IMG/VR virus record: IMGVR_UViG_3300044712_002690
Span: 64,001 to 128,000 of that record
Length of the DNA stretch: 64,000 bases
From: a virus
Direction: 5' to 3' (one strand)
Under the pieces are notes generated by a model. The model saw nothing but the letters and a program-made list of their open reading frames with translations. It searched no databases and was not told the origin of the DNA. Shown here piece after piece: positions 36,136-44,852 of the stretch. How positions within the stretch are numbered: the stretch's first letter is position 1; every line of letters begins with the position of its first letter. The translations under genes were made by a program, and so were the position numbers.

Positions 36136-36210
36136 TGGGAGAAGTACGAGAATCGAACTCGTATCTTTGGAACCACAATCCAAGGTAATAGCCGTTATAC
36201 GAACTTCTCC
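36136..36210 (-). tRNA. trnH: tRNA-His(GUG) with encoded G-1
   Basis: Cloverleaf; loop UUGUGGU; G-1:C73. Confidence 0.9.
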
Positions 36211-36221
36211 ATAAAAATAAA

Positions 36222-36287
36222 TTTGAGATTGAGAGACTCGAACTCTCGGAAAAGGGTTATGAGCCCTAATCCCCACCTGGATCTCAA
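36222..36287 (-). ncRNA. D-arm-deficient tRNA-like element with CAU anticodon
   Basis: Acceptor UUGAGAU/AUCUCAA, AGGG-CUCAUAA-CCCU, T arm GAGAG-UUCGAGU-CUCUC, only about 12 nt in the D region. Confidence 0.65.
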
Positions 36288-36351
36288 CAGGATACTAGCT
36301 ATCACTAGTAACCTTTTTTGTTCATCGACCGGAGAGAATATGATGTTTATG

Positions 36352-36423
36352 TCGGGGTGGTCGGGATCGAACCGACGACTTTCTGCTCCCAAAGCAGACA
36401 CGCTACCGCTGCGCCACACCCCG
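36352..36423 (-). tRNA. trnP: tRNA-Pro(UGG)
   Basis: UCUGC-UUUGGGA-GCAGA; C1:G72; A73. Confidence 0.93.
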
Positions 36424-36427
36424 TATT

Positions 36428-36676
36428 TTACTTTAAACAATTCTTGCAGGAGTAAGTACCCTTAGCAACCCATTTCAAGTCTTTAAAAAAGACATTAGCA
36501 CCACATCTATAACAAATTCCTTTTCCTTCTTCAATTAAAACTCGTATTGAATCCCCTTGTTTCCAGAATTTACAATTTTGTATTGCTTCTTCAGTCATTG
36601 GGATCGGTTTTGCATAATTTTGTGGATGACCACAAACAAACATTGCATGAAACCAACAATTATTACAATTATCCAC
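36428..36676 (-). CDS. Cys-rich hypothetical protein
   Basis: Several CxxC motifs. Confidence 0.55.
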   Translation of the reverse strand: MDNCNNCWFHAMFVCGHPQNYAKPIPMTEEAIQNCKFWKQGDSIRVLIEEGKGICYRCGANVFFKDLKWVAKGTYSCKNCLK

Positions 36677-36957
36677 TAGCTTGCTCTTTTAACTCTATAT
36701 TGAATAGCGTCAGAAATATCTCTTAGTTTAGCTGGTTTAGAAACCTTACAATCATCATACTCGCAATTGAAACAATCATCCTCACATACACCTAAATGTA
36801 TTCTAATACAACTATTACACACAGTAAAACTATATTTATTCTCTTGTGTGATAGGAGTGTTACAATATTTACACACATTCCTTTTATTTTTAATTTTATG
36901 AATAGAATTATACTTCCTTTGATATTCTCTTTTTTGCTCAATATCCTTAAAGGGCAT
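36676..36957 (-). CDS. Cys-rich hypothetical protein
   Basis: AAGGA RBS; CxxC motifs. Confidence 0.6.
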   Translation of the reverse strand: MPFKDIEQKREYQRKYNSIHKIKNKRNVCKYCNTPITQENKYSFTVCNSCIRIHLGVCEDDCFNCEYDDCKVSKPAKLRDISDAIQYRVKRAS

Positions 36958-36990
36958 ATTTTATATCCTTATTGATATTAAAATAAAATG

Positions 36991-37063
36991 AGCTCCCGAG
37001 AGGAATTGAACCCCCAACCTACTGATTACAAATCAGTTGCTCTACCGATTGAGCTACAGGAGC
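36991..37063 (-). tRNA. trnT: tRNA-Thr(UGU)
   Basis: ACUGA-UUUGUAA-UCAGU; full cloverleaf. Confidence 0.93.
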
Positions 37064-37231
37064 AAGTAAGTTATGTAGTTGGTTTAAGAGCCAACTTCAT
37101 TTCTTTCATTTTCTTAGTCTTTTCTTTCCAGCTTAGTGATTTCCAAATCTTTTTAAAAATCCTGTAGTTAATATCTTGTGAGGAAGATATTTTCCTACTA
37201 TACTTCTTAAGTACTTTAGCTGTTTTAGTAT

Positions 37232-37432
37232 TCATTTCATCTCCTTTTTCTTAATGTCTTTATATAAATATCTTTTTTTCATTAAACTTTTTATAATTTT
37301 GTCTGTTTCTTCTATTGTTAAATTAGCTAGTTTAGCAATATTATCGATATAACAAGGTTCACTGTTTTTCCATTTATTTACAATGTTATAAACATCTTGT
37401 TCTATTTTAGAAGAGAACTTTTTATAGCTCAC
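37232..37432 (-). CDS. Small winged-HTH-like protein
   Basis: IDNIAKLANLTIEETDKIIKSLMKKRYL. Confidence 0.5.
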   Translation of the reverse strand: MSYKKFSSKIEQDVYNIVNKWKNSEPCYIDNIAKLANLTIEETDKIIKSLMKKRYLYKDIKKKEMK

Positions 37433-37450
37433 AGCATTCCTTTTATAAGA

Positions 37451-37526
37451 TAGTATACAGGCGGCTTATATTTACAACCTTTGCTCTTACCTTCCGGAAC
37501 GGTTACGCGGACGGCCTGTATACTAA
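37451..37526 (-). ncRNA. Unidentified structured RNA closed by a 12-bp stem
   Basis: UAGUAUACAGGC/GCCUGUAUACUA enclosing a GC-rich interior with small hairpins. Confidence 0.5.
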
Positions 37527-37527
37527 T

Positions 37528-37615
37528 TGGCGGAGGCCGGATTCGAACCGGCGTTACAAGTCTTTCGACGCCGAGGGTTATGAGCCCTCCGAGAAGCCAA
37601 CTCCTCTACTCCGCT
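37528..37615 (-). tRNA. trnfM: Initiator-type tRNA-Met(CAU) with 20-nt variable arm
   Basis: A1xC72 mismatch, A11:U24, GAGGG-CUCAUAA-CCCUC (three G:C pairs), variable GGCGUCGAAAGACUUGUAAC. Confidence 0.85.
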
Positions 37616-37653
37616 CTATATTATAAAATATACCAATTGGTTATATTTTTCTT

Positions 37654-37839
37654 CTAAAACTTTTTAATAATAGCAATAGTACTATCTGAAATCTCTTTCT
37701 TATCTAAATCAATTGAAAGATTAGCTTCAATTGAAATATCATTACTTATATTTACCAATCCATCTTTAGGCTGATTACTTTGCAGAGATGGATCCTTTCT
37801 TAGATTTTTACCGTTTACTGTTTTAAGCCACTCGAACAT
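37654..37839 (-). CDS. Hypothetical protein
   Basis: AAGG RBS; ORF between tRNAs. Confidence 0.5.
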   Translation of the reverse strand: MFEWLKTVNGKNLRKDPSLQSNQPKDGLVNISNDISIEANLSIDLDKKEISDSTIAIIKKF

Positions 37840-37853
37840 ATACCTTACCTATG

Positions 37854-37932
37854 CAGGGGTGACACGAGTCGAACGTGCATTGCCGAAGCACGGTTTTGGA
37901 GACCGCTGGGTTAGCCATTACCCTACACCCCT
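37854..37932 (-). tRNA. trnW: tRNA-Trp(CCA) with 11-nt variable arm
   Basis: GCGGU-CUCCAAA-ACCGU; G73; variable GCUUCGGCAAU. Confidence 0.9.
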
Positions 37933-37942
37933 AAATATTCTG

Positions 37943-38021
37943 AGCAAGTGATGGGACTCGAACCCACAATGCTTTCGCATCAGTTTGGAAGACTGACAGC
38001 TTACCTTTAGCTTACACTTGC
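37943..38021 (-). tRNA. trnG: tRNA-Gly(UCC) with 12-nt variable arm
   Basis: UCAGU-CUUCCAA-ACUGA; U73; variable UGCGAAAGCAUU. Confidence 0.9.
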
Positions 38022-38546
38022 TTATTGAATCATTCTTACTTGAGTATAGTCACTAAGTAAGAATCTTCTCTGCTTATTTACTTCTTGAATTGCCTCACAA
38101 ATATTATCATACGATTCAGTTACTAACGTATTAAATTCTTCTTCATTAAATTCTACAATAGTGCGATCTCTTTCAAGACACTCGTATAAGTCTTCTACAT
38201 TTTTATAAAATTTTCTATAAAGAAGAGTATATACTTTTTTTATATCCTTAACATAAAATCTAATAAATGAATCTTGTGTAATGAATCCAATATAAACAGA
38301 GTTATTATCTATTCTTTCCCAAGTACGAAATTTTGTTTGATCTGACCTAACACTAAGTTCTTCAATAAGATCATCTATATTAGCTTTTATATAGCCAGTA
38401 CCATAATGAAAGTTATTTAAATCATATGTACTAGCAGTATCATTACCAATAATAGGATTGTAACCTTCAGGTGCATTTAACCAAATACCATCATGAAGAA
38501 ATAAGTGAAATGAACGTAACATCCATTTGTATAATTCTTCTTTCAT
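38022..38546 (-). CDS. Hypothetical protein
   Basis: AAGGAG RBS; 174 aa. Confidence 0.7.
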   Translation of the reverse strand: MKEELYKWMLRSFHLFLHDGIWLNAPEGYNPIIGNDTASTYDLNNFHYGTGYIKANIDDLIEELSVRSDQTKFRTWERIDNNSVYIGFITQDSFIRFYVKDIKKVYTLLYRKFYKNVEDLYECLERDRTIVEFNEEEFNTLVTESYDNICEAIQEVNKQRRFLLSDYTQVRMIQ

Positions 38547-38604
38547 ATAATTTCTCCTTTCTAATTTATACTTGTAATATATAAAGAAAAGAGAATAAAA
38601 CTAA

Positions 38605-39120
38605 CTAAAGCATTGCTCCAACTTGTGGACTTGTTGTTACTCCTTGTTGTAAGAACGTTGCTGATGCCTGTTGTACAGCTTGTAACCAAGCTTCTTTAGT
38701 AATTAATGAACGAAGTATAGGAACTATATTCACTAAATTTGGATCTTGACTTCCTTGATTATATATTTCAATTCCTATCCAATCCATTGCTGGAATCGAA
38801 TCTGTTTGTGTTTTAGCTTCCTGAGGAACCATACCTTTTTGAGATATAAAATCGTCAATAGTTAATTTTGCTATATTAAGAAGCGTAGAATTAACTAATG
38901 TATTAAGATCTTGCTCAGGATTCTGTTGTATAGATGCAATTAACTTACTAATTTCACTATCAAGAATCTCTTGAGTTAAATCAGCATATTTAACTACTAT
39001 ATGAGCAAAAACAGTTTTATAAAATCTTTCAAGACAATCAGCTCTTCTTGTATCCATATATACTTCTCCTAGATAGATAATATATAAAGATAACATGAAG
39101 AGTGATTTTTTAAGTTTCAC
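38605..39120 (-). CDS. Hypothetical protein (likely start MDTRR at 39057)
   Basis: AGGAG RBS before the internal ATG. Confidence 0.65.
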   Translation of the reverse strand: MKLKKSLFMLSLYIIYLGEVYMDTRRADCLERFYKTVFAHIVVKYADLTQEILDSEISKLIASIQQNPEQDLNTLVNSTLLNIAKLTIDDFISQKGMVPQEAKTQTDSIPAMDWIGIEIYNQGSQDPNLVNIVPILRSLITKEAWLQAVQQASATFLQQGVTTSPQVGAML

Positions 39121-39133
39121 TGCTTCAAATAAA

Positions 39134-39361
39134 TTAAGCAGCTACTACTACATCTTTCTCCATACGATTAACACCAATAACTTCAAACTTCTCATCTTCA
39201 TTCCACTTAGCTTTAACAGCAGAAGCAGCAGCACCTACATCAGTAGCAACAGCTAGTTCACAGCGGTTGATAACTTTTCCTGTAGTGCGCGAGGTACGTT
39301 TAATGTCTACATGGTACAGGTTCATTATAAAGCTCCTTTCATTTAATTTATTTTGATACAT
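39134..39361 (-). CDS. Hypothetical protein
   Basis: AAGGAG RBS before MNLYHV. Confidence 0.6.
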   Translation of the reverse strand: MYQNKLNERSFIMNLYHVDIKRTSRTTGKVINRCELAVATDVGAAASAVKAKWNEDEKFEVIGVNRMEKDVVVAA

Positions 39362-39400
39362 TTAATATAAGAAACCTTTACTAATAAAGTAACTAGTATG

Positions 39401-39480
39401 TACCACGAGAGGGACTCGAACCCTCACCAATTAAGACTAGTTCCTAAGACTAGCGCGTCTACCAGTTCCGCCATCGTGGC
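39401..39480 (-). tRNA. trnL: tRNA-Leu(UAG)
   Basis: CUAGU-CUUAGGA-ACUAG; class II; A73. Confidence 0.92.
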
Positions 39481-39483
39481 ATG

Positions 39484-39556
39484 TGCTCAAGGTCGGGATC
39501 GAACCGACTACACACGGATTTTCAGTCCGTTGCTCTACCTTCTGAGCTACCTGAGC
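39484..39556 (-). tRNA. trnF: tRNA-Phe(GAA)
   Basis: ACGGA-CUGAAAA-UCCGU. Confidence 0.94.
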
Positions 39557-39561
39557 TCATG

Positions 39562-39635
39562 TGGATCGTCCCTGACTCGAACAGGGGGCCTAATGATTAT
39601 GAGTCATTTGCTCTAACCAACTGAGCTAACGATCC
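39562..39635 (-). tRNA. tRNA with CAU anticodon (elongator Met or Ile2)
   Basis: AAUGA-CUCAUAA-UCAUU; paired G1:C72; Met versus lysidine-Ile cannot be resolved by eye. Confidence 0.88.
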
Positions 39636-39641
39636 AAGAAT

Positions 39642-39716
39642 TGGGACTTCTCCGACTTGAACGGAGGACCTATTGCCTATCAAGCAATTGCTCTAACCAA
39701 ACTGAGCTAAAGTCCC
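39642..39716 (-). tRNA. trnI: tRNA-Ile(GAU)
   Basis: AUUGC-UUGAUAG-GCAAU. Confidence 0.92.
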
Positions 39717-39734
39717 TGTTTTGAAAGAAAAATA

Positions 39735-39908
39735 AACTAAAGGTGTGTTGCTACACCAAAGGAGACACATTGTTTATCCTAGCCAACACTTCCTGCGGGT
39801 CTCACAGGTCTTAGTTTTTACACTTGGTCAGTTTCGGAATGATCTCCACTCATTAAAGTATACAGTTTCCCAAGCTGCTGGCTACCTCTAAGCCCACTGC
39901 CTTTAGTT
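39735..39908 (-). ncRNA. Unidentified ~175-nt multi-stem RNA with two potential pseudoknots
   Basis: Closing stem AACUAAAGG/CCUUUAGUU and four internal stems whose G:U pairs favour the - strand. Confidence 0.6.
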
Positions 39909-39914
39909 ATTCTG

Positions 39915-39987
39915 TGGACCTGATCGGTTACGATCCGACTACCTCCTGCTTGCAGGGCAGGCGCTCTCCCAATTGAGCTACAGGCCC
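39915..39987 (-). tRNA. trnA: tRNA-Ala(UGC), atypical C33 and T loop
   Basis: G3:U70; CCUGC-CCUGCAA-GCAGG; T loop AUCGUAA. Confidence 0.88.
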
Positions 39988-39994
39988 TAATTAG

Positions 39995-40231
39995 TTAATG
40001 TTTTAGCTTTTCACCTTCTTTAATCATTTCTTCTATAACATTGTCAATTAAAGTAAAAAGTTCGTCACTATTTCTATCTAGTAAAGCAGCTACACCACTA
40101 ATTATTTTTATTTGAGTACTTATTTCTTCATCTTCGTCTTCACTTACAGGAAGATACATTGAAATTGTATTATCAGTACGAAGAACAAGTGCTGCATCAC
40201 CATCTTTTAATGTAATTTTTGTTTTACCCAT
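39995..40231 (-). CDS. Hypothetical protein
   Basis: AAGGAAG RBS; ORF between tRNAs. Confidence 0.6.
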   Translation of the reverse strand: MGKTKITLKDGDAALVLRTDNTISMYLPVSEDEDEEISTQIKIISGVAALLDRNSDELFTLIDNVIEEMIKEGEKLKH

Positions 40232-40256
40232 AAATGTCTTCCTTATGTTTGGTATT

Positions 40257-40330
40257 TGGATCGGGTGAGGGTCGAACTCACGACTCCTGCATTAAAAGTG
40301 CAGTGCTACTACCAACTGAGCTACCGATCC
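40257..40330 (-). tRNA. trnK: tRNA-Lys(UUU)
   Basis: CUGCA-CUUUUAA-UGCAG. Confidence 0.93.
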
Positions 40331-40391
40331 TTTCGTTTATTACTTTCCTTATCACTTTCCTTCATAAGGAAACCTCCTTTAAATTAAAATG

Positions 40392-40467
40392 TGTTCCTGA
40401 AGGGACTCGAACCCCTAACCTTCTGATCCGTAATCAGAAACTCTAAATCCAATTGAGCTACAGGAAC
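40392..40467 (-). tRNA. trnR: tRNA-Arg(ACG)
   Basis: UCUGA-UUACGGA-UCAGA. Confidence 0.92.
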
Positions 40468-40475
40468 TTAAAATG

Positions 40476-40548
40476 CGTCCCAGGAGAGGATCGAACTCCC
40501 GACAAACGGATTAGAAATCCGTTGCTCTTCCACCTGAGCTACTGGGAC
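40476..40548 (-). tRNA. trnR: tRNA-Arg(UCU)
   Basis: ACGGA-UUUCUAA-UCCGU. Confidence 0.93.
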
Positions 40549-40605
40549 AAAAAGCGTGTTGATATACTCAACACTAAAACCAACGATTTCCATCCAAATC
40601 GCTTG

Positions 40606-40677
40606 CTCTGGAGGCAAGGATCGAACTTGCGACCAATCGGTTAACAGCCGATGGCTCTACCGCTGAGCTACTCCAGA
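40606..40677 (-). tRNA. trnN: tRNA-Asn(GUU)
   Basis: AUCGG-CUGUUAA-CCGAU; G73. Confidence 0.94.
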
Positions 40678-40682
40678 ATATA

Positions 40683-41177
40683 TTAGATAAAAGGAGTTAA
40701 ATGCAATAACCTTTTAATTTTCCATTTGATATTTTTTATTAAGTAAATACTATATCTTACTATTCTTTTAACAGTCCATTTGTTTTTTATTTCAATTTCA
40801 TATTGACCATATTTAGTTTTAGATACTATTTGAAATGCATTGAAAAATTGATCGTTTGATCCCCATGGTACACCACAGTCATATTCTGTTCCATCTTTAT
40901 ATTCAATTGAAATACCTGTTATGTCTGAATGGTTAGTAACTCTTTTATATAAAGATACATATTCATCATTCCAATTTTTATATTGTAATGGTTTAAGGTC
41001 TTTAAATATGACATAAATCCACTCTGCACCATCACGTTCATCACCTTGTGTTACATTACAACACGAATAGTGTTTGTGAACTTTTCCAATATACCAATTT
41101 GAAATATGTTTAATATCTATTTTAGCAGTATCACAATTTTCAAAGATTAATACTACATTTTTCACTTCTTTAAACAT
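40683..41177 (-). CDS. Conserved phage hypothetical protein
   Basis: 164 aa ORF with AAGGA RBS. Confidence 0.7.
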   Translation of the reverse strand: MFKEVKNVVLIFENCDTAKIDIKHISNWYIGKVHKHYSCCNVTQGDERDGAEWIYVIFKDLKPLQYKNWNDEYVSLYKRVTNHSDITGISIEYKDGTEYDCGVPWGSNDQFFNAFQIVSKTKYGQYEIEIKNKWTVKRIVRYSIYLIKNIKWKIKRLLHLTPFI

Positions 41178-41198
41178 GTTCTATTATATCCTTGTATG

Positions 41199-41273
41199 CG
41201 AGGCTGAAGGGACTCGAACCCTCGACCTTCTGCGTGACAGGCAGACGCTCTAACCAAACTGAGCTACAACCCC
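41199..41273 (-). tRNA. trnD: tRNA-Asp(GUC)
   Basis: UCUGC-CUGUCAC-GCAGA; G73. Confidence 0.94.
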
Positions 41274-41279
41274 GTTTAT

Positions 41280-41552
41280 TTAAGAATCAGCAATCTCACT
41301 AGTAAAATAACGATTTTGTGAAACTGTAAGTGCTGTACAAAGACTACATTGCCAACATTTATGTTCCACCATCCATTTAGCATACTCTTTTAATTCTACA
41401 CCTTCAATTACTATCGAAACAAGAAGTTCTCCATTATCTTTTATTTCAATAGTAGGAAAATCTTCTTTCAAGTCAGCTAATACTTTAGCTTTAAGAGCAG
41501 TAGCACTATCCTTATCAGCACAAACTTTATCAAAAGCAAGAAGATCTTTCAT
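41280..41552 (-). CDS. Hypothetical protein
   Basis: AAGGAG RBS. Confidence 0.65.
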   Translation of the reverse strand: MKDLLAFDKVCADKDSATALKAKVLADLKEDFPTIEIKDNGELLVSIVIEGVELKEYAKWMVEHKCWQCSLCTALTVSQNRYFTSEIADS

Positions 41553-41573
41553 ACATTACTCCTTTAAAAATTG

Positions 41574-42058
41574 TGCCCAAGGCCGGAGTCGAACCGGCAC
41601 GGAGAAATCTCCATGGGATTTTACTTACCACTATAGCTTTCGCTACCAGTATTGCGCGTCTATTAAACTTTTTACTACTTATTTATTTAATGTGGTTCGT
41701 AGCCCCCACTCTTAATAGAATACTGTTTGTAGTCTGGACTTTGTCTTCACCATATTAAAGTACCACGACTGCCATATCACTGACCTCTATGTAGGCCACA
41801 GTCCTTATGACTTTAATTTAGGTGGTGCCCGTCAAGTCTCTACACGTTCCAAGCAGGTGAGGTATCAGATTATTTCTAATCTTCTCATTCTCCTTTTGCT
41901 TTCCTTACTTGGTTTCGCTCGGCGTTGGGTCATATAGATTCTAATTAAGATCTCTCCATATAGGCCGTTCACCGAATTTGAGCACTTACTACTAAAAAGT
42001 TTCCTTTTTAGCGACCCTTTAATGAGTCCCAGGTGTCTACCAATTCCACCACTTGGGC
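41574..42058 (-). tRNA. trnL: tRNA-Leu(UAA), split by a group I intron (exons 42025-42058 and 41574-41623)
   Basis: Joined exons give UGGGA-CU^UAAAA-UCCCA, class II variable arm, A73. Confidence 0.9.
41624..42024 (-). mobile_element. ORF-less group I intron, 401 nt
   Basis: P1 GACU/GGUC with U:G splice site; P2 CUAAAAAG-GAAA-CUUUUUAG; CUCAAAUUCGGUGAA, GUAGAGACUUGACGGG and AAGACAAAGUCC core motifs; terminal G. Confidence 0.9.
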
Positions 42059-42060
42059 AA

Positions 42061-42141
42061 AATAAAGTAAGGTCTAGCAAGTAGAAGTAGGGAGGTAACA
42101 TTTCAAGCGTTAACCTACTCCTATCCGTACCTTACTTTATT
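42061..42141 (-). ncRNA. Y-RNA-like element Y1 (downstream of Ro60)
   Basis: 13-bp terminal stem AAUAAAGUAAGGU/ACCUUACUUUAUU, GGUACGGA motif, 10-bp stem UAGGAGUAGG/CCUACUUCUA. Confidence 0.75.
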
Positions 42142-42153
42142 AGAATTCAGAAA

Positions 42154-43767
42154 TTAAATGCCCCCTTTAGCAAATTCAGAAATGATTGATGGTGCCGCTG
42201 AATCGAAGCCGCAAACATCAAGCATTCCAGGGTCTTTAGGATCTGCAATTGTAAATTGAGTTCCTACCATACCTACAACAGCTAATTTAGCATCTTTCAC
42301 ATGAGCGTTTCTATACTTTTTGAGTGCTTGGCTTGGTGCAATTCTTCCGGCCCAAGTCTCATTATCAGTATAGATTGTAAAAATATCAAAGTCTAATTTT
42401 TCTCTAAGAGCCCATTCCATCGGCAATGCACAATCTGTTCCTTCGAATGGAAGACCTGAAATTTTTCTAATAGTTTCATTCAATGACATTCTAGGAGTAA
42501 TGTCAAGGTGCATGAATCTACTAGAGAATCCCATAATCTCATAGTTCTTTTCTGTACGAGCAGTTACCATTGCCATACAAGCAGATGCTTCACGGCAAGT
42601 AACAATACCATACGCTCCAGAAATATAAGCTCCTCCCATTGAACCAGATACGTCAAGTGCAAGTAAGAATCTTTTATCTGTTGGTTCAATATTCTTGAAA
42701 CTAAGATAAAAAGCTTCTTCAAGTGCATCACGTACTTTACCAACAGGCTTCCAAGTAAGACTACCTTTGATTCCATGACCCATTGAATATGTTTTTAATG
42801 CAATGAGAATATTCAATGGATGCAGTCTACTTTTAGAAATATAATCCTGATTAGTTAATTTTCCAACCACACGTTCAATTTCATTAAACTTACCAGGACC
42901 AATTACTCCGATTGCAGTAAGTCTGTTAAGACTTCTCATTAATGCTGTAAGTGGAATATCATCAAGAGCTTCTGTCCAAATACTAACATTATTCTTCAGT
43001 TCAGTAGGCCAAGCATCTTGAGGAATTTTGTATTCCTTAATAAGCTTTTTAGCTTTTGCTACATCAGCTGTTTTAAGTTCATCGAAAGCATTAATAAGTT
43101 TCAATGCTTCTGATTTTTCTCCTTTAACAGCATACTTAAAAAGCTCATTATGAGCATCGGACACTGGTTTTACGTGTGCAGAACGAAGAACATCTCGATG
43201 TGTCCACTGATTTCCTGTTCCTTCAACAGTACGTCCTTGATATTTAACTAGTTGATATTCAAGTTTAGAAGGTTCCATTGCATACCAATTAGAAATAGCT
43301 TTACGTACTGACCTTCCCCAACTTCTCATTGTATCTACATAGTGAGTAAACATGAAAAGATGAGTACCTGTACGACAAATCTTAGGCATAGCCTTTGAGA
43401 TTTCAGTTTTGAAAGAACTATCTTTACAATTAGTAATAAGAGCTGCTAAAAGGAAAATAGCTTGATCATTTTTAGCTGCTCTACCTGAATCAGAAATTTC
43501 TACAATAGTTTCAAGTACACGTTTAGGGTCTTCATCTATACAAGCTAAGCAATTTGAGATGTTTAGCTTAGTAAGATCATTTTGAGTGACATAGTATGTT
43601 CCGCCTTCAGACCCAAGCACAAGGAAGCGTTGGAGCATCTTCCACTTATCTAGTACGAATGTGTACCCACCTGCATTATTCTTTGCCATTTCCTTTTCAC
43701 GACCAGGAATAGGCTGAGATTGAGGTGTTTGTTTAGAATCTTGAAAAGAACTGTAATTGACAGCCAT
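42154..43767 (-). CDS. rsr: Ro60 / TROVE-domain RNA-binding protein (Rsr-like)
   Basis: NNAGGY...LQRFLVLGSEGGTYY, YQGR...WTHRDVLR, HPL..L.AL..Y..G, vWA MIDAS LALDVSGSM, GTDC, YTDNETW; start MAVNYS after GAAGGAGG. Confidence 0.95.
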   Translation of the reverse strand: MAVNYSSFQDSKQTPQSQPIPGREKEMAKNNAGGYTFVLDKWKMLQRFLVLGSEGGTYYVTQNDLTKLNISNCLACIDEDPKRVLETIVEISDSGRAAKNDQAIFLLAALITNCKDSSFKTEISKAMPKICRTGTHLFMFTHYVDTMRSWGRSVRKAISNWYAMEPSKLEYQLVKYQGRTVEGTGNQWTHRDVLRSAHVKPVSDAHNELFKYAVKGEKSEALKLINAFDELKTADVAKAKKLIKEYKIPQDAWPTELKNNVSIWTEALDDIPLTALMRSLNRLTAIGVIGPGKFNEIERVVGKLTNQDYISKSRLHPLNILIALKTYSMGHGIKGSLTWKPVGKVRDALEEAFYLSFKNIEPTDKRFLLALDVSGSMGGAYISGAYGIVTCREASACMAMVTARTEKNYEIMGFSSRFMHLDITPRMSLNETIRKISGLPFEGTDCALPMEWALREKLDFDIFTIYTDNETWAGRIAPSQALKKYRNAHVKDAKLAVVGMVGTQFTIADPKDPGMLDVCGFDSAAPSIISEFAKGGI

Positions 43768-43785
43768 TTTGCTGCCTCCTTCATA

Positions 43786-43858
43786 TAAGATTAGGTCAAG
43801 TAGTTGGAATAGGGGAAACATTCTGAAGTTAACCTACCCCATCCGTACCTAAAACCTT
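43786..43858 (-). ncRNA. Y-RNA-like element Y2 (upstream of the Ro60 RBS)
   Basis: UUAGGUACGG...UUGACCUAA terminal helix with bulged A; UGGGGUAGG/CCUAUUCCA stem. Confidence 0.8.
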
Positions 43859-43860
43859 TA

Positions 43861-43985
43861 GGAACAAGGCAGGATTTGAACCTGCGACCAGCCCATTATA
43901 AGTGGTAACCTTTTCTCTTCCGTACCTTTCAGTCAATAGTTTGAAAAAAGGGTTTTAGCTGCTCTACCGCTGAGCTACTTGTTCC
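43861..43985 (-). ncRNA. tRNA-Y chimera Y3: tRNA-Ile(UAU)-like body with a 52-nt Y module inserted at 28/29
   Basis: Acceptor, D and T arms intact; insert 43906-43957 holds UUGACU-GAAA-GGUACGG; removing it gives GCCCA-CUUAUAA-UGGGC. Confidence 0.8.
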
Positions 43986-43988
43986 TTG

Positions 43989-44114
43989 TCCTAAGGGGAG
44001 GACTTGAACCTCCGACCCGTAGTGTGACCTGTTAACCTTAACCTGCCGTACCTTTCGGTCAAATAATCGGAAAAGGTATTTTAACTACTGCTCTACCAAC
44101 TGAGCTACCTTAGG
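43989..44114 (-). ncRNA. tRNA-Y chimera Y4: tRNA scaffold with a 60-nt Y-containing insert in place of the anticodon loop
   Basis: CCUAAGG/CCUUAGG acceptor, canonical D and T arms, GUAGU/ACUAC stem enclosing UUGACC-GAAA-GGUACGG. Confidence 0.8.
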
Positions 44115-44123
44115 ATATAAATA

Positions 44124-44191
44124 TAATTGGTCAAATGAGTTGCGATAGGATGCTAACACCATAAGTTAACCTATCACATCCGTACCAATTA
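44124..44191 (-). ncRNA. Y-RNA-like element Y5
   Basis: UAAUUGGUACGG...UUGACCAAUUA; UGUGAUAGG/CCUAUCGCA stem; UUAAC/GUUAG apical helix. Confidence 0.8.
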
Positions 44192-44194
44192 ATT

Positions 44195-44266
44195 CTGCGG
44201 GACTAGGACTCGAACCTAGACAACAGATTCCAAGGACCTGTGTCCTACCAATTAGACCATCCCGCA
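44195..44266 (-). tRNA. trnQ: tRNA-Gln(UUG), atypical C33
   Basis: U1:A72, G73; CAGGU-CCUUGGA-AUCUG. Confidence 0.88.
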
Positions 44267-44345
44267 ATAAGAAATACAATTATATCAGGTACTTTTTGAC
44301 TTCTACTTATAATATAAGATAAGTAAAAGAAGAAAGTAACTAATG

Positions 44346-44432
44346 CGGGCAGAGTAGGATTTGAACCCACGGAACCTTTAGATCCTCTAGTTTTCAAGAC
44401 TAGCGCCATAAACCAGACTCGGCCATCTGCCC
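44346..44432 (-). tRNA. trnS: tRNA-Ser(UGA)
   Basis: CUAGU-CUUGAAA-ACUAG; long variable arm; G73. Confidence 0.93.
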
Positions 44433-44436
44433 GATG

Positions 44437-44523
44437 CGGAGAGGAAGAGATTTGAACTCTTATCGGCCTGCCGGCCTACGCAGGTTTAGCAAACCTGTCA
44501 CTTACCAGTTAGTGTACCTCTCC
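44437..44523 (-). tRNA. trnS: tRNA-Ser(GCU)
   Basis: CAGGU-UUGCUAA-ACCUG; long variable arm; G73. Confidence 0.92.
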
Positions 44524-44528
44524 TAATG

Positions 44529-44602
44529 CATCGGGGACGGGACTTGAACCCGCAAATACCAACGTGAAAGGCTGGTGACTTTACCAATTTGTCTACCCCG
44601 AC
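44529..44602 (-). tRNA. trnE: tRNA-Glu(UUC)
   Basis: CCAGC-CUUUCAC-GUUGG. Confidence 0.92.
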
Positions 44603-44604
44603 AT

Positions 44605-44679
44605 TGGACCGTCAAGGAATTGAACCTTGCTGAAAAACTATCCTGTAAAAATAGCGCCTACCCAGCCGGCCCACGGTCC
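44605..44679 (-). tRNA. trnV: tRNA-Val(UAC), 8-nt variable region
   Basis: CUAUU-UUUACAG-GAUAG; GGACCGU/ACGGUCC. Confidence 0.82.
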
Positions 44680-44757
44680 ATAAAGCCTACTCTTTGTTTA
44701 TAGTGGCTGTTGGCAGCGTAATTCCACTACACGATTTAAAGCTAGTGCGTACTCATT

Positions 44758-44843
44758 TGGATGGGGAGGGATTCGAACCCCCAACGCTCAATCGAGTCCA
44801 GATTTACAGTCTGGTAGTGTCCACCAGTCTCACAAGCCCATCC
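44758..44843 (-). tRNA. trnY: tRNA-Tyr(GUA)
   Basis: CCAGA-CUGUAAA-UCUGG; class II; A73. Confidence 0.93.
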
Positions 44844-44852
44844 ATTTTCGTT

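What the first reader, a model, noticed from the sequence alone, without database searches (positions are those of the whole stretch)
43989..44114. Second tRNA-Y chimera with the anticodon loop replaced
Seen: perfect acceptor, D, anticodon and T stems, but 60 nt (44024-44083) replace the 7-nt loop, including UUGACC-GAAA-GGUACGG and GUUAA/UUAAC. The insert shares UAAAA and AGGUUA boundary motifs with Y3, but the tRNA body and insertion register differ, so the architecture arose or was maintained twice. The residual GUCAC-ACUAC-GGGUC resembles tRNA-Asp, yet no simple excision restores U33. Inference: a non-decoding tRNA-shaped tether or decoy.
Basis: partly seen in the sequence, partly recalled or inferred. 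Interest (0 to 1): 0.85.

Follow-up and report, generated by a model that had tools for sequence, protein, structure and literature searches.

The report
tRNA-shaped Ro60 partner RNA lacking anticodon
Just upstream of a phage's Ro60 gene lies a 126-base RNA gene built like a whole tRNA whose anticodon loop is replaced by the docking helix for Ro60; it is a conserved, rewired form of the known bacterial YrlA Y RNAs that I could not find described in print, and not a tRNA with an intron.

Summary
Observation confirmed. 44114-43989 (minus strand) is a tRNA body with four perfect stems and a 60-nt insert in place of the anticodon loop, 222 nt upstream of a phage ro60 gene. The insert is the Y module found five times in this genome, only around ro60, here with its strands swapped and capped by GAAA. 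The RNA is thus a circular permutation of YrlA: acceptor end open, Ro60 stem closed. About 87 such RNAs lie beside ro60 in phages and bacteria. A model built without the target scores it 76.6 bits, against 59.2 or less for real tRNAs. It is conserved, not decayed. The Asp likeness, GUUAA/UUAAC and 'boundary' motifs are incidental or misread, and splicing is unlikely. Best reading: a non-decoding Ro60 tether or gate. Binding, expression and partner are untested, and RNAfold disfavours the Ro helix in this copy. The scan found this family before on other DNA.

The parts
43989..44114 (-). tY-A: tRNA-order Y RNA without an anticodon hairpin (class B); nt 1 = 44114, discriminator A73 = 43989
   Evidence: model R1 76.6 bits, full length
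44108..44114 (-). Acceptor 5' strand; pairs 7/7 with 43996-43990 (C1-G72)
   Evidence: pair probability 0.99-1.0
44090..44105 (-). D arm (GCUC/GAGC stem, loop with G18G19); stem invariant in the clade
44084..44088 (-). Anticodon-stem 5' strand GUAGU; pairs 5/5 with ACUAC at 44023-44019
   Evidence: orthologues GCAGU/ACUGC, CCAGC/GCUGG, CCAGU/ACUGG
44068..44077 (-). Upper stem of the Y module, first strand; pairs with 44045-44035 (5 bp, two U.U, 2-3 bp; weaker than in the other four modules)
44046..44062 (-). Permuted Ro60-type bulged helix: 3' strand UUGACC, GAAA cap, 5' strand GGUACGG
   Evidence: 100% of cells paired in 11 clade RNAs, 2 compensatory pairs
44031..44035 (-). UUAAC, the YUAY-type motif that follows the upper stem in YrlA RNAs and in all five modules here
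   Evidence: (Chen 2014)
44024..44030 (-). Unpaired 7-nt tail AGGUCAC; not conserved in orthologues
43997..44018 (-). Variable loop GGGUC and T arm (5/5 stem, UUCAAGU loop)
43986..43988 (-). 3-nt trailer/spacer CAA; no encoded CCA; an N73-CA trailer is shared with 17 of 23 true tRNA genes of the phage
   Evidence: (74.1 bits)
44124..44190 (-). Hairpin Y RNA in canonical order (Ro helix formed by its two ends), directly upstream
43788..43853 (-). Hairpin Y RNA in canonical order, between tY-B and ro60
42154..43767 (-). ro60 gene, 537 aa, TROVE + vWA_Ro60; keeps the H-x-D-x-x-R-x-x-H stretch of Xenopus, human and Deinococcus Ro60
42061..42136 (-). Fifth Y module, canonical hairpin just after the ro60 stop codon

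Best explanation
tY-A is a stable, non-decoding Y RNA partner of the phage's own Ro60, a circular permutation of YrlA. SHOWN from sequence: a full tRNA body with native open ends, a Ro60-type bulged helix closed by GAAA on a stem that extends the anticodon arm, no anticodon loop, and conservation beside ro60. INFERRED: (1) it is co-transcribed with the tRNA cluster and cut out by host tRNA enzymes (7-bp acceptor for RNase P; the same N73-CA trailer as the phage's tRNAs), probably receiving CCA. (2) It folds into an L shape, with Ro60 bound at the far end of the anticodon arm, as on YrlA. (3) It works as a tether or gate: the free elbow and acceptor end engage a host tRNA-recognising or RNA-decay protein (PNPase by analogy, or the RtcB the phage encodes), bringing Ro60 to RNA turnover or repair during infection. 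Having no anticodon loop, it cannot decode and offers no site to anticodon nucleases. Odds: about 0.8 that it is an unspliced Ro60-bound RNA; about 0.45 for the tether role within that.
For: Five copies of the module in the genome, all at ro60, control 0. About 87 distinct RNAs of this order beside ro60 in viral, metagenome and bacterial contigs. In a motif scan blind to ro60, all 4 loci with such an RNA also held ro60. Model R1 (25 RNAs, target excluded) gives 76.6 bits against 59.2 or less for true tRNAs. Covariation in those 25: anticodon stem 5/5 pairs and Ro helix 4/7 pairs with double changes, 0/500 shuffles. 15 members have exactly a 5-bp stem against 1.7 (cross null) or 5.3 (conditional null, max 12) expected. 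Nearest Ro60s (58-68%): class-B orthologues in L378, L379, L381, L382, L384, each locus also with class A. The Ro helix is 100% paired in 11 clade RNAs with ACC/GGU, GCA/UGC, ACA/UGU, ACU/AGU. L382 keeps the same ACC-GAAA-GGUACGG cap. A profile of 47 YrlA-order RNAs scores the target best when opened at the GAAA cap: 52.5 against 23.7 bits native. A phage Ro60 binds its Y-like RNAs and host PNPase in vitro (PMC12135203). M. smegmatis YrlA stays Ro-bound after RNase P opens its acceptor and CCA is added (PMC4201824).
Against: RNAfold puts the Ro-type fold 3.2 kcal/mol above a competing fold, with Ro-helix probability 0.02 against a class median of 0.92. Some clade members are equally low (0.01-0.08), and RNAfold does not score the bulge or A.G well. 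The 5' strand GGUACGG does not meet the YrlA GNCGAA motif and has an A.G where other Y RNAs have C-G. The permutation score is only moderately specific: insert-shuffled controls averaged 44.0 +/- 1.9 and 1 of 60 reached 52.6; true tRNAs reached 47.0. The covariation structure was chosen while looking at the alignment. No expression, binding or partner data exist.
Confidence: 0.75

Rival explanations
1. Decoy: the Ro60-bound tRNA mimic soaks up a host anti-phage protein that recognises tRNA (anticodon nuclease, tRNA-modifying toxin or uncharged-tRNA sensor) instead of tethering an enzyme. It would still be a Ro60 partner RNA.
For: It sits in a phage tRNA cluster. A Ro60-like protein of phage Bas63 counters the Ppl defence system (PMC11482910). 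Acb2/Tad1-hairpin genes lie next to ro60 in four close relatives. Class A members show many different anticodon-like loops, 37 of 39 with U33.
Against: This copy has no anticodon loop, and its 3' tail is not conserved, so it cannot bait loop-reading nucleases. The same RNAs sit beside ro60 in bacterial chromosomes such as Sorangium and Minicystis. The phage has 23 real tRNAs that would serve as decoys.
Confidence: 0.12
2. A decaying copy: once a working class-B RNA, now misfolding so that the Ro site is buried.
For: Competing fold favoured by 3.2 kcal/mol; two U.U mismatches in the upper stem. Four other modules could serve Ro60.
Against: All 21 tRNA-stem pairs are Watson-Crick. The Ro helix strands, GNRA cap and YUAY motif are intact. 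It scores as high on R1 as its orthologues (76.6 against 70-80 bits). Other intact-looking members are also predicted to misfold.
Confidence: 0.08
3. An intron-containing tRNA: the insert is cut out and the halves joined by the phage's RtcB, giving a decoding tRNA (Asp, or Phe by ARAGORN) and a free Y RNA.
For: The genome encodes RtcB. ARAGORN -i calls a 55-nt intron. The tail resembles the loop of the phage's tRNA-Asp. Wang 2018 raised processing of YrlA to tRNA as a possibility.
Against: No excision gives Y32-U33-R37 on the 5-bp stem in the target or in 3 of 5 orthologues, and the two that can use different registers. Family-wide 5 of 15 can, against 2.5 by chance. The ARAGORN product needs a 4-bp stem and an AAA anticodon. 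The acceptor is not Asp-type. 60 nt is too short for a self-splicing intron, and RtcB lies 65 kb away.
Confidence: 0.04
4. The real RNA is an ordinary YrlA read across the tandem, from GGUACGG of tY-A to UUGACU of tY-B.
For: Rfam YrlA matches 43926-44045 weakly (23.2 bits, E 0.12, cut-off 69).
Against: The junction's would-be acceptor strands do not pair, while each unit's own acceptor pairs 7/7. The junction folds no better than shuffles (z +0.34). In L378 and L379 the two types are not adjacent.
Confidence: 0.02

Closest known systems
YrlA (Y RNA-like A; Rfam RF02553; Chen et al. 2014 PMC4201824; Wang et al. 2018 bioRxiv 10.1101/312249)
   Same: Encoded next to ro60 on the same strand. Same modules in the same circular order: Ro strand, stem, YUAY, variable region, T arm, acceptor, D arm, stem, Ro strand. 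Ro-binding stem in place of the anticodon arm; no anticodon loop.
   Different: The ends are at the acceptor stem and the Ro helix is closed by GAAA; in YrlA the ends form the Ro stem and the acceptor is a closed loop. The 5' strand is GGUACGG, not GNCGAA. It does not reach the Rfam cut-off.
[quoted passage not shown]
   Same: A Ro-bound RNA with an open 7-bp acceptor stem.
   Different: That RNA is in two pieces, open at both ends. Here one chain is encoded with the Ro stem capped.
Deinococcus radiodurans Yrn1 and hairpin Y RNAs (Yrn2, YrlB, phiLo Yrl1/Yrl2; PMC4201824, PMC12135203)
   Same: A bulged Ro helix with both strands kept; several Y RNAs clustered with tRNAs upstream of ro60.
   Different: In these the 5' and 3' ends form the Ro stem. 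Yrn1 has D-AC-T order with the Ro stem in place of the acceptor; the target keeps a true acceptor.
b7a-tRNA (Burroughs and Aravind 2016, known to me only through Wang 2018)
   Same: A predicted RNA strongly resembling a tRNA, sometimes encoded next to Rsr. One close relative (L384) has a Band_7 gene near ro60.
   Different: The paper was not held, so I could not check whether b7a-tRNA carries a Ro module. No Band_7 gene was found in this 76%-complete genome. It is the one possible prior description left open.
tRNAs with introns (group I in bacteria and phages; BHB type in archaea)
   Same: Extra sequence in the anticodon arm; gene finders call it so.
   Different: No fixed splice register, no canonical product, and the insert is a conserved Y module. 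The phage's real group I intron (tRNA-Leu, 401 nt) looks quite different.

Membership tests
YrlA | Encoded within about 4 kb of a Ro60 gene on the same strand | tested here: met
   222 nt upstream of ro60
YrlA | tRNA-like D and T arms with the conserved elbow bases | tested here: met
YrlA | Order T arm, closed acceptor hairpin, D arm; 5' and 3' ends pair to form the Ro60 stem | tested here: not met
   Native tRNA order with open acceptor; YrlA-order profile 23.7 bits native, 52.5 permuted
YrlA | GNCGAAN(0-1)G motif on the Ro 5' strand | tested here: not met
   GGUACGGCAG; a variant shared by this Ro60 clade, including its canonical hairpin Y RNAs
YrlA | YUAY motif at the start of the variable region | tested here: met
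   UUAAC here (one base off YUAY); UUAUC in the orthologues
YrlA | Rfam RF02553 gathering score (69 bits) | tested here: inconclusive
   Only a 23.2-bit junction match, but the Gordonia polyisoprenivorans YrlA, a species in Chen 2014, also scores only 45.2
Y RNA (general) | Bulged Ro60-binding helix | tested here: met
   Both strands present, with compensatory changes in the clade; predicted stability in this copy is low
Y RNA (general) | Binds Ro60 in vivo or in vitro | not testable with these tools
   No protein-RNA assay or fold available
Decoding tRNA | 7-nt anticodon loop with U33 on a 5-bp stem, directly or after one excision | tested here: not met
Decoding tRNA (Asp) | G73 discriminator and GUC anticodon in a canonical loop | tested here: not met
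   A73, C1-G72; GUC lies in an unconserved tail; identity rule from own knowledge
Group I intron in tRNA | Catalytic core of 200 nt or more, match to RF00028 | tested here: not met
   60-nt insert with no match; the tRNA-Leu intron nearby does match
b7a-tRNA | tRNA-like RNA next to Band-7 and RtcB genes; structure as published | not testable with these tools
   Paper not held; no Band_7 gene in this genome

The most novel reading that the evidence does not exclude
Because its acceptor end is open, tY-A receives CCA and is handled as a tRNA (aminoacylated, or bound by EF-Tu, the ribosome or an uncharged-tRNA sensor), delivering phage Ro60 to the host translation machinery. The conserved pairing of an anticodon-bearing type and an anticodon-less type would then be a division of labour: one is nuclease bait or sensor, the other a nuclease-proof tether. 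The pair would also be the living ancestor of YrlA, whose 'variable' hairpin is a leftover anticodon arm.
Probability: 0.2. Interest if true: 0.8.

Novelty: new variant of a known kind. Interest (0 to 1): 0.55.

Why it matters
Wang et al. 2018 state that all characterised Y RNAs form the Ro60 site by pairing their 5' and 3' ends. This family does not, and it is common beside ro60 in phages, Myxococcota and Gemmatimonadota, where tools miss it or call it an intron-containing tRNA. It bears on two open questions. First, the origin of YrlA: a tRNA carrying an inserted Y module, once in tandem, contains a YrlA at its junction, and the two orders interleave on the Ro60 tree (17 changes, at least 7 forced by strong branches). 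Second, what the tRNA domain of Y RNAs is for: an open acceptor end makes CCA addition and charging directly testable, in culturable hosts such as Sorangium.

Tried and rejected
Exact-motif scan of viral contigs: 5 hits, all chance matches in coding DNA. Loose GGUACG-variant scan: nearly all chance, one real locus (L355). Sequencing runs: no RNA holder listed, so no evidence on expression. Run X1, the possible source of this DNA, gave only scattered cover. Promoter/terminator scan: no more sites than shuffles. ATP-grasp RNA ligase (PF09414) and Band_7 were not found in the 76%-complete genome. Rfam at gathering threshold on 20 Ro60 loci found no YrlA, so YrlA-order RNAs were collected by pattern instead; a few of them (such as L166) are probably tandem junctions, which inflates the tree count slightly. 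Papers not held: Burroughs and Aravind 2016, Sim and Wolin 2018, Sim et al. 2020, Boccitto and Wolin 2019; no supplement for Chen 2014. Six literature searches found no description of this layout. Four close Ro60 loci came without DNA. The IQ-TREE run timed out; FastTree was used. The host was not identified. Rejected: Asp ancestry, GUUAA/UUAAC as a conserved hairpin, UAAAA/AGGUUA as splice boundaries, a YrlA across the junction.

Full report
Setting. The window is part of a 179-kb, 32% GC viral record, 76% complete. The finding lies on the minus strand in a cluster of 23 tRNA genes, 222 nt upstream of a 537-aa Ro60 gene (TROVE and vWA_Ro60; E about 1e-108 to human, Xenopus and Deinococcus Ro60). 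The protein keeps the H-x-D-x-x-R-x-x-H stretch that, from my own knowledge, holds Y RNA-contacting residues in Xenopus Ro60.

Observation. The four stems are perfect (7, 4, 5 and 5 Watson-Crick pairs) and 60 nt (44083-44024) replace the loop. A contig of a second study covers 43795-44527 without differences. The motif GGUACGG-N-AGGUUA occurs five times in the genome, all next to ro60, against none for the reversed control. In the three hairpin RNAs GGUACGG comes first and UUGACC (or UAGACC) last, as in ordinary Y RNAs. In tY-A and tY-B the order is swapped and the strands are joined by GAAA.

What it is. In YrlA the ends pair to form the Ro60 stem, which takes the place of the anticodon arm, and the acceptor is a closed loop (Chen 2014; Wang 2018). 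tY-A has the same modules in the same circular order, opened at the acceptor instead. I collected 47 YrlA-order RNAs beside ro60, including that of Gordonia polyisoprenivorans, a species in Chen 2014. Their profile scores tY-A best when it is opened at the GAAA cap: 52.5 bits against 23.7 in native order. This test is only moderately specific. Most of the score comes from the D and T arms: insert-shuffled controls averaged 44.0 +/- 1.9, one of 60 reached 52.6, and true tRNAs reached 47.0. AGGUUA is not a boundary; it is the stem end plus the YUAY-type motif of YrlA.

Family. Loci around 215 Ro60 relatives and a motif scan gave about 87 distinct RNAs in tRNA order with this module, in viruses, metagenomes, Myxococcota, Gemmatimonadota and others. 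In the motif scan, which was blind to ro60, all four loci with such an RNA also encoded Ro60. There are two types. In class A (tY-B) the module sits after 2-3 bp of the anticodon stem and an anticodon-like hairpin follows; 37 of 39 have U33, with many different triplets. In class B (the target) a full 4-5-bp stem carries the module and only a short unpaired tail follows. Fifteen members have a 5-bp stem and none a longer one, against 1.7 expected when strands are swapped between RNAs and 5.3 (maximum 12) in a stricter null. In 25 class-B-like RNAs without the target, all 5 anticodon-stem pairs and 4 of 7 Ro-helix pairs show double changes, with 0 of 500 shuffles as high; the structure was chosen on this alignment, so the counts lean upward. 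A covariance model from them scores the target 76.6 bits over its whole length, tY-B 74.1, and true tRNAs 59.2 or less.

Nearest relatives. A protein search found a clade of Ro60s at 55-68% identity. Of eight loci obtained with DNA, five (L378, L379, L381, L382, L384) carry a class-B RNA, and each of these also carries a class-A RNA. L381 has B then A with a 3-nt spacer, as here. Their anticodon stems are all 5/5 paired with compensatory changes. In 11 RNAs of the clade, the target included, the Ro helix is paired in every cell, with the variants ACC/GGU, GCA/UGC, ACA/UGU and ACU/AGU. L382 keeps ACC-GAAA-GGUACGG and a 60-nt insert. The GGUACG variant of the helix, with its A.G apposition, is a mark of this Ro60 clade: the two closest proteins on the tree (L061, L064; support 100) have hairpin Y RNAs with it. 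The 3' tail is different in every orthologue, so the Asp likeness is incidental; GUUAA/UUAAC is not kept either.

Not an intron. No single excision gives Y32-U33-R37 on the 5-bp stem in the target or in three of five orthologues, and the two that can use different registers. Family-wide 5 of 15 can, against 2.5 by chance. ARAGORN's intron call needs a 4-bp stem and an AAA anticodon. The genome encodes RtcB, but 65 kb away.

How it probably works. Inferred, not shown. The 7-bp acceptor and the A73-CAA trailer suggest normal tRNA processing: 17 of 23 true tRNA genes here have N73-CA, against a 5% background for CA. M. smegmatis YrlA is cut by RNase P, receives CCA and is still recovered with Ro60, so an open acceptor is compatible with binding. 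Ro60 would sit at the tip of the extended anticodon arm, leaving the elbow and acceptor end free for a partner. By analogy with Deinococcus, Salmonella and Thermus phage phiLo that partner is PNPase, or RtcB. A counter-defence role is possible: a Ro60-like protein of phage Bas63 counters Ppl. A bait for anticodon nucleases suits class A, not this RNA.

Weak points. RNAfold prefers a competing fold by 3.2 kcal/mol and gives the Ro helix a probability of 0.02; the class median is 0.92, though several clade members are as low. The upper stem has two U.U mismatches. The GNCGAA motif of YrlA is not met. Nothing here shows expression or binding.

Evolution. On a FastTree of 113 Ro60 proteins the two orders are clustered (17 changes against 34.7 shuffled) but interleaved, with at least 7 changes forced by strong branches; a few labels may be tandem junctions. 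A tandem of tRNA-order RNAs contains a YrlA-order junction, seen here as the weak Rfam match at 43926-44045. This offers a route between the two forms, close to the dimeric-tRNA model cited in Wang 2018. The direction of change is not established.

Novelty. It works like YrlA but fails two defining features (end topology, 5' motif), so it is a new variant of the Y RNA kind. Six searches found no paper on this layout. The b7a-tRNA of Burroughs and Aravind 2016 could not be read and might overlap. Earlier notes of this scan report the same family in at least 12 genomes; I reached this reading before opening them and tested it independently. Interest 0.55.

Noticed in passing
window 41573-42058 (-): tRNA-Leu(UAA) with a 401-nt group I intron, apparently after U33 (P1 GACU/GGUC); Rfam Intron_gpI 39.7 bits, E 1e-8, below the cut-off of 50. 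It starts 3 nt after the fifth Y module.
   Followed up: partly
window 36137-44844 (-): 17 of 23 tRNA genes are followed by N73-C-A and none encodes CCA: a phage-wide 3' processing signature.
   Followed up: partly
L214:2690-2830 and other YrlA-order RNAs: The 'variable' stem-loop of many YrlA RNAs is an anticodon hairpin (Gordonia: CCA-CUCAUAA-UGG), nearly the same as in tY-B (CCA-CUUAUAA-UGG).
   Followed up: partly
G000:C1:173356-174375 (-), outside the window: RtcB RNA ligase gene (PF01139, E 5e-65).
   Followed up: no
L384 and three close Ro60 loci without DNA: An Acb2/Tad1-hairpin gene lies within about 1.5 kb upstream of ro60; L384 also has a Band_7 gene and further tRNA-order Y RNAs at 128-391.
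   Followed up: no
L382:4802-4901: A shortened tRNA-order RNA: D arm, Ro module capped by GAAU, YUAY, then the T arm directly, with no anticodon stem. L239 near 4570 looks similar.
   Followed up: no
L006:4300-5000: An array of about six Ro modules upstream of ro60, several in swapped order without a tRNA body.
   Followed up: no
L182, L206 (Sorangium, Minicystis): In cultured myxobacteria ro60 and its tRNA-order Y RNAs are embedded in large tRNA arrays; a practical test system.
   Followed up: no
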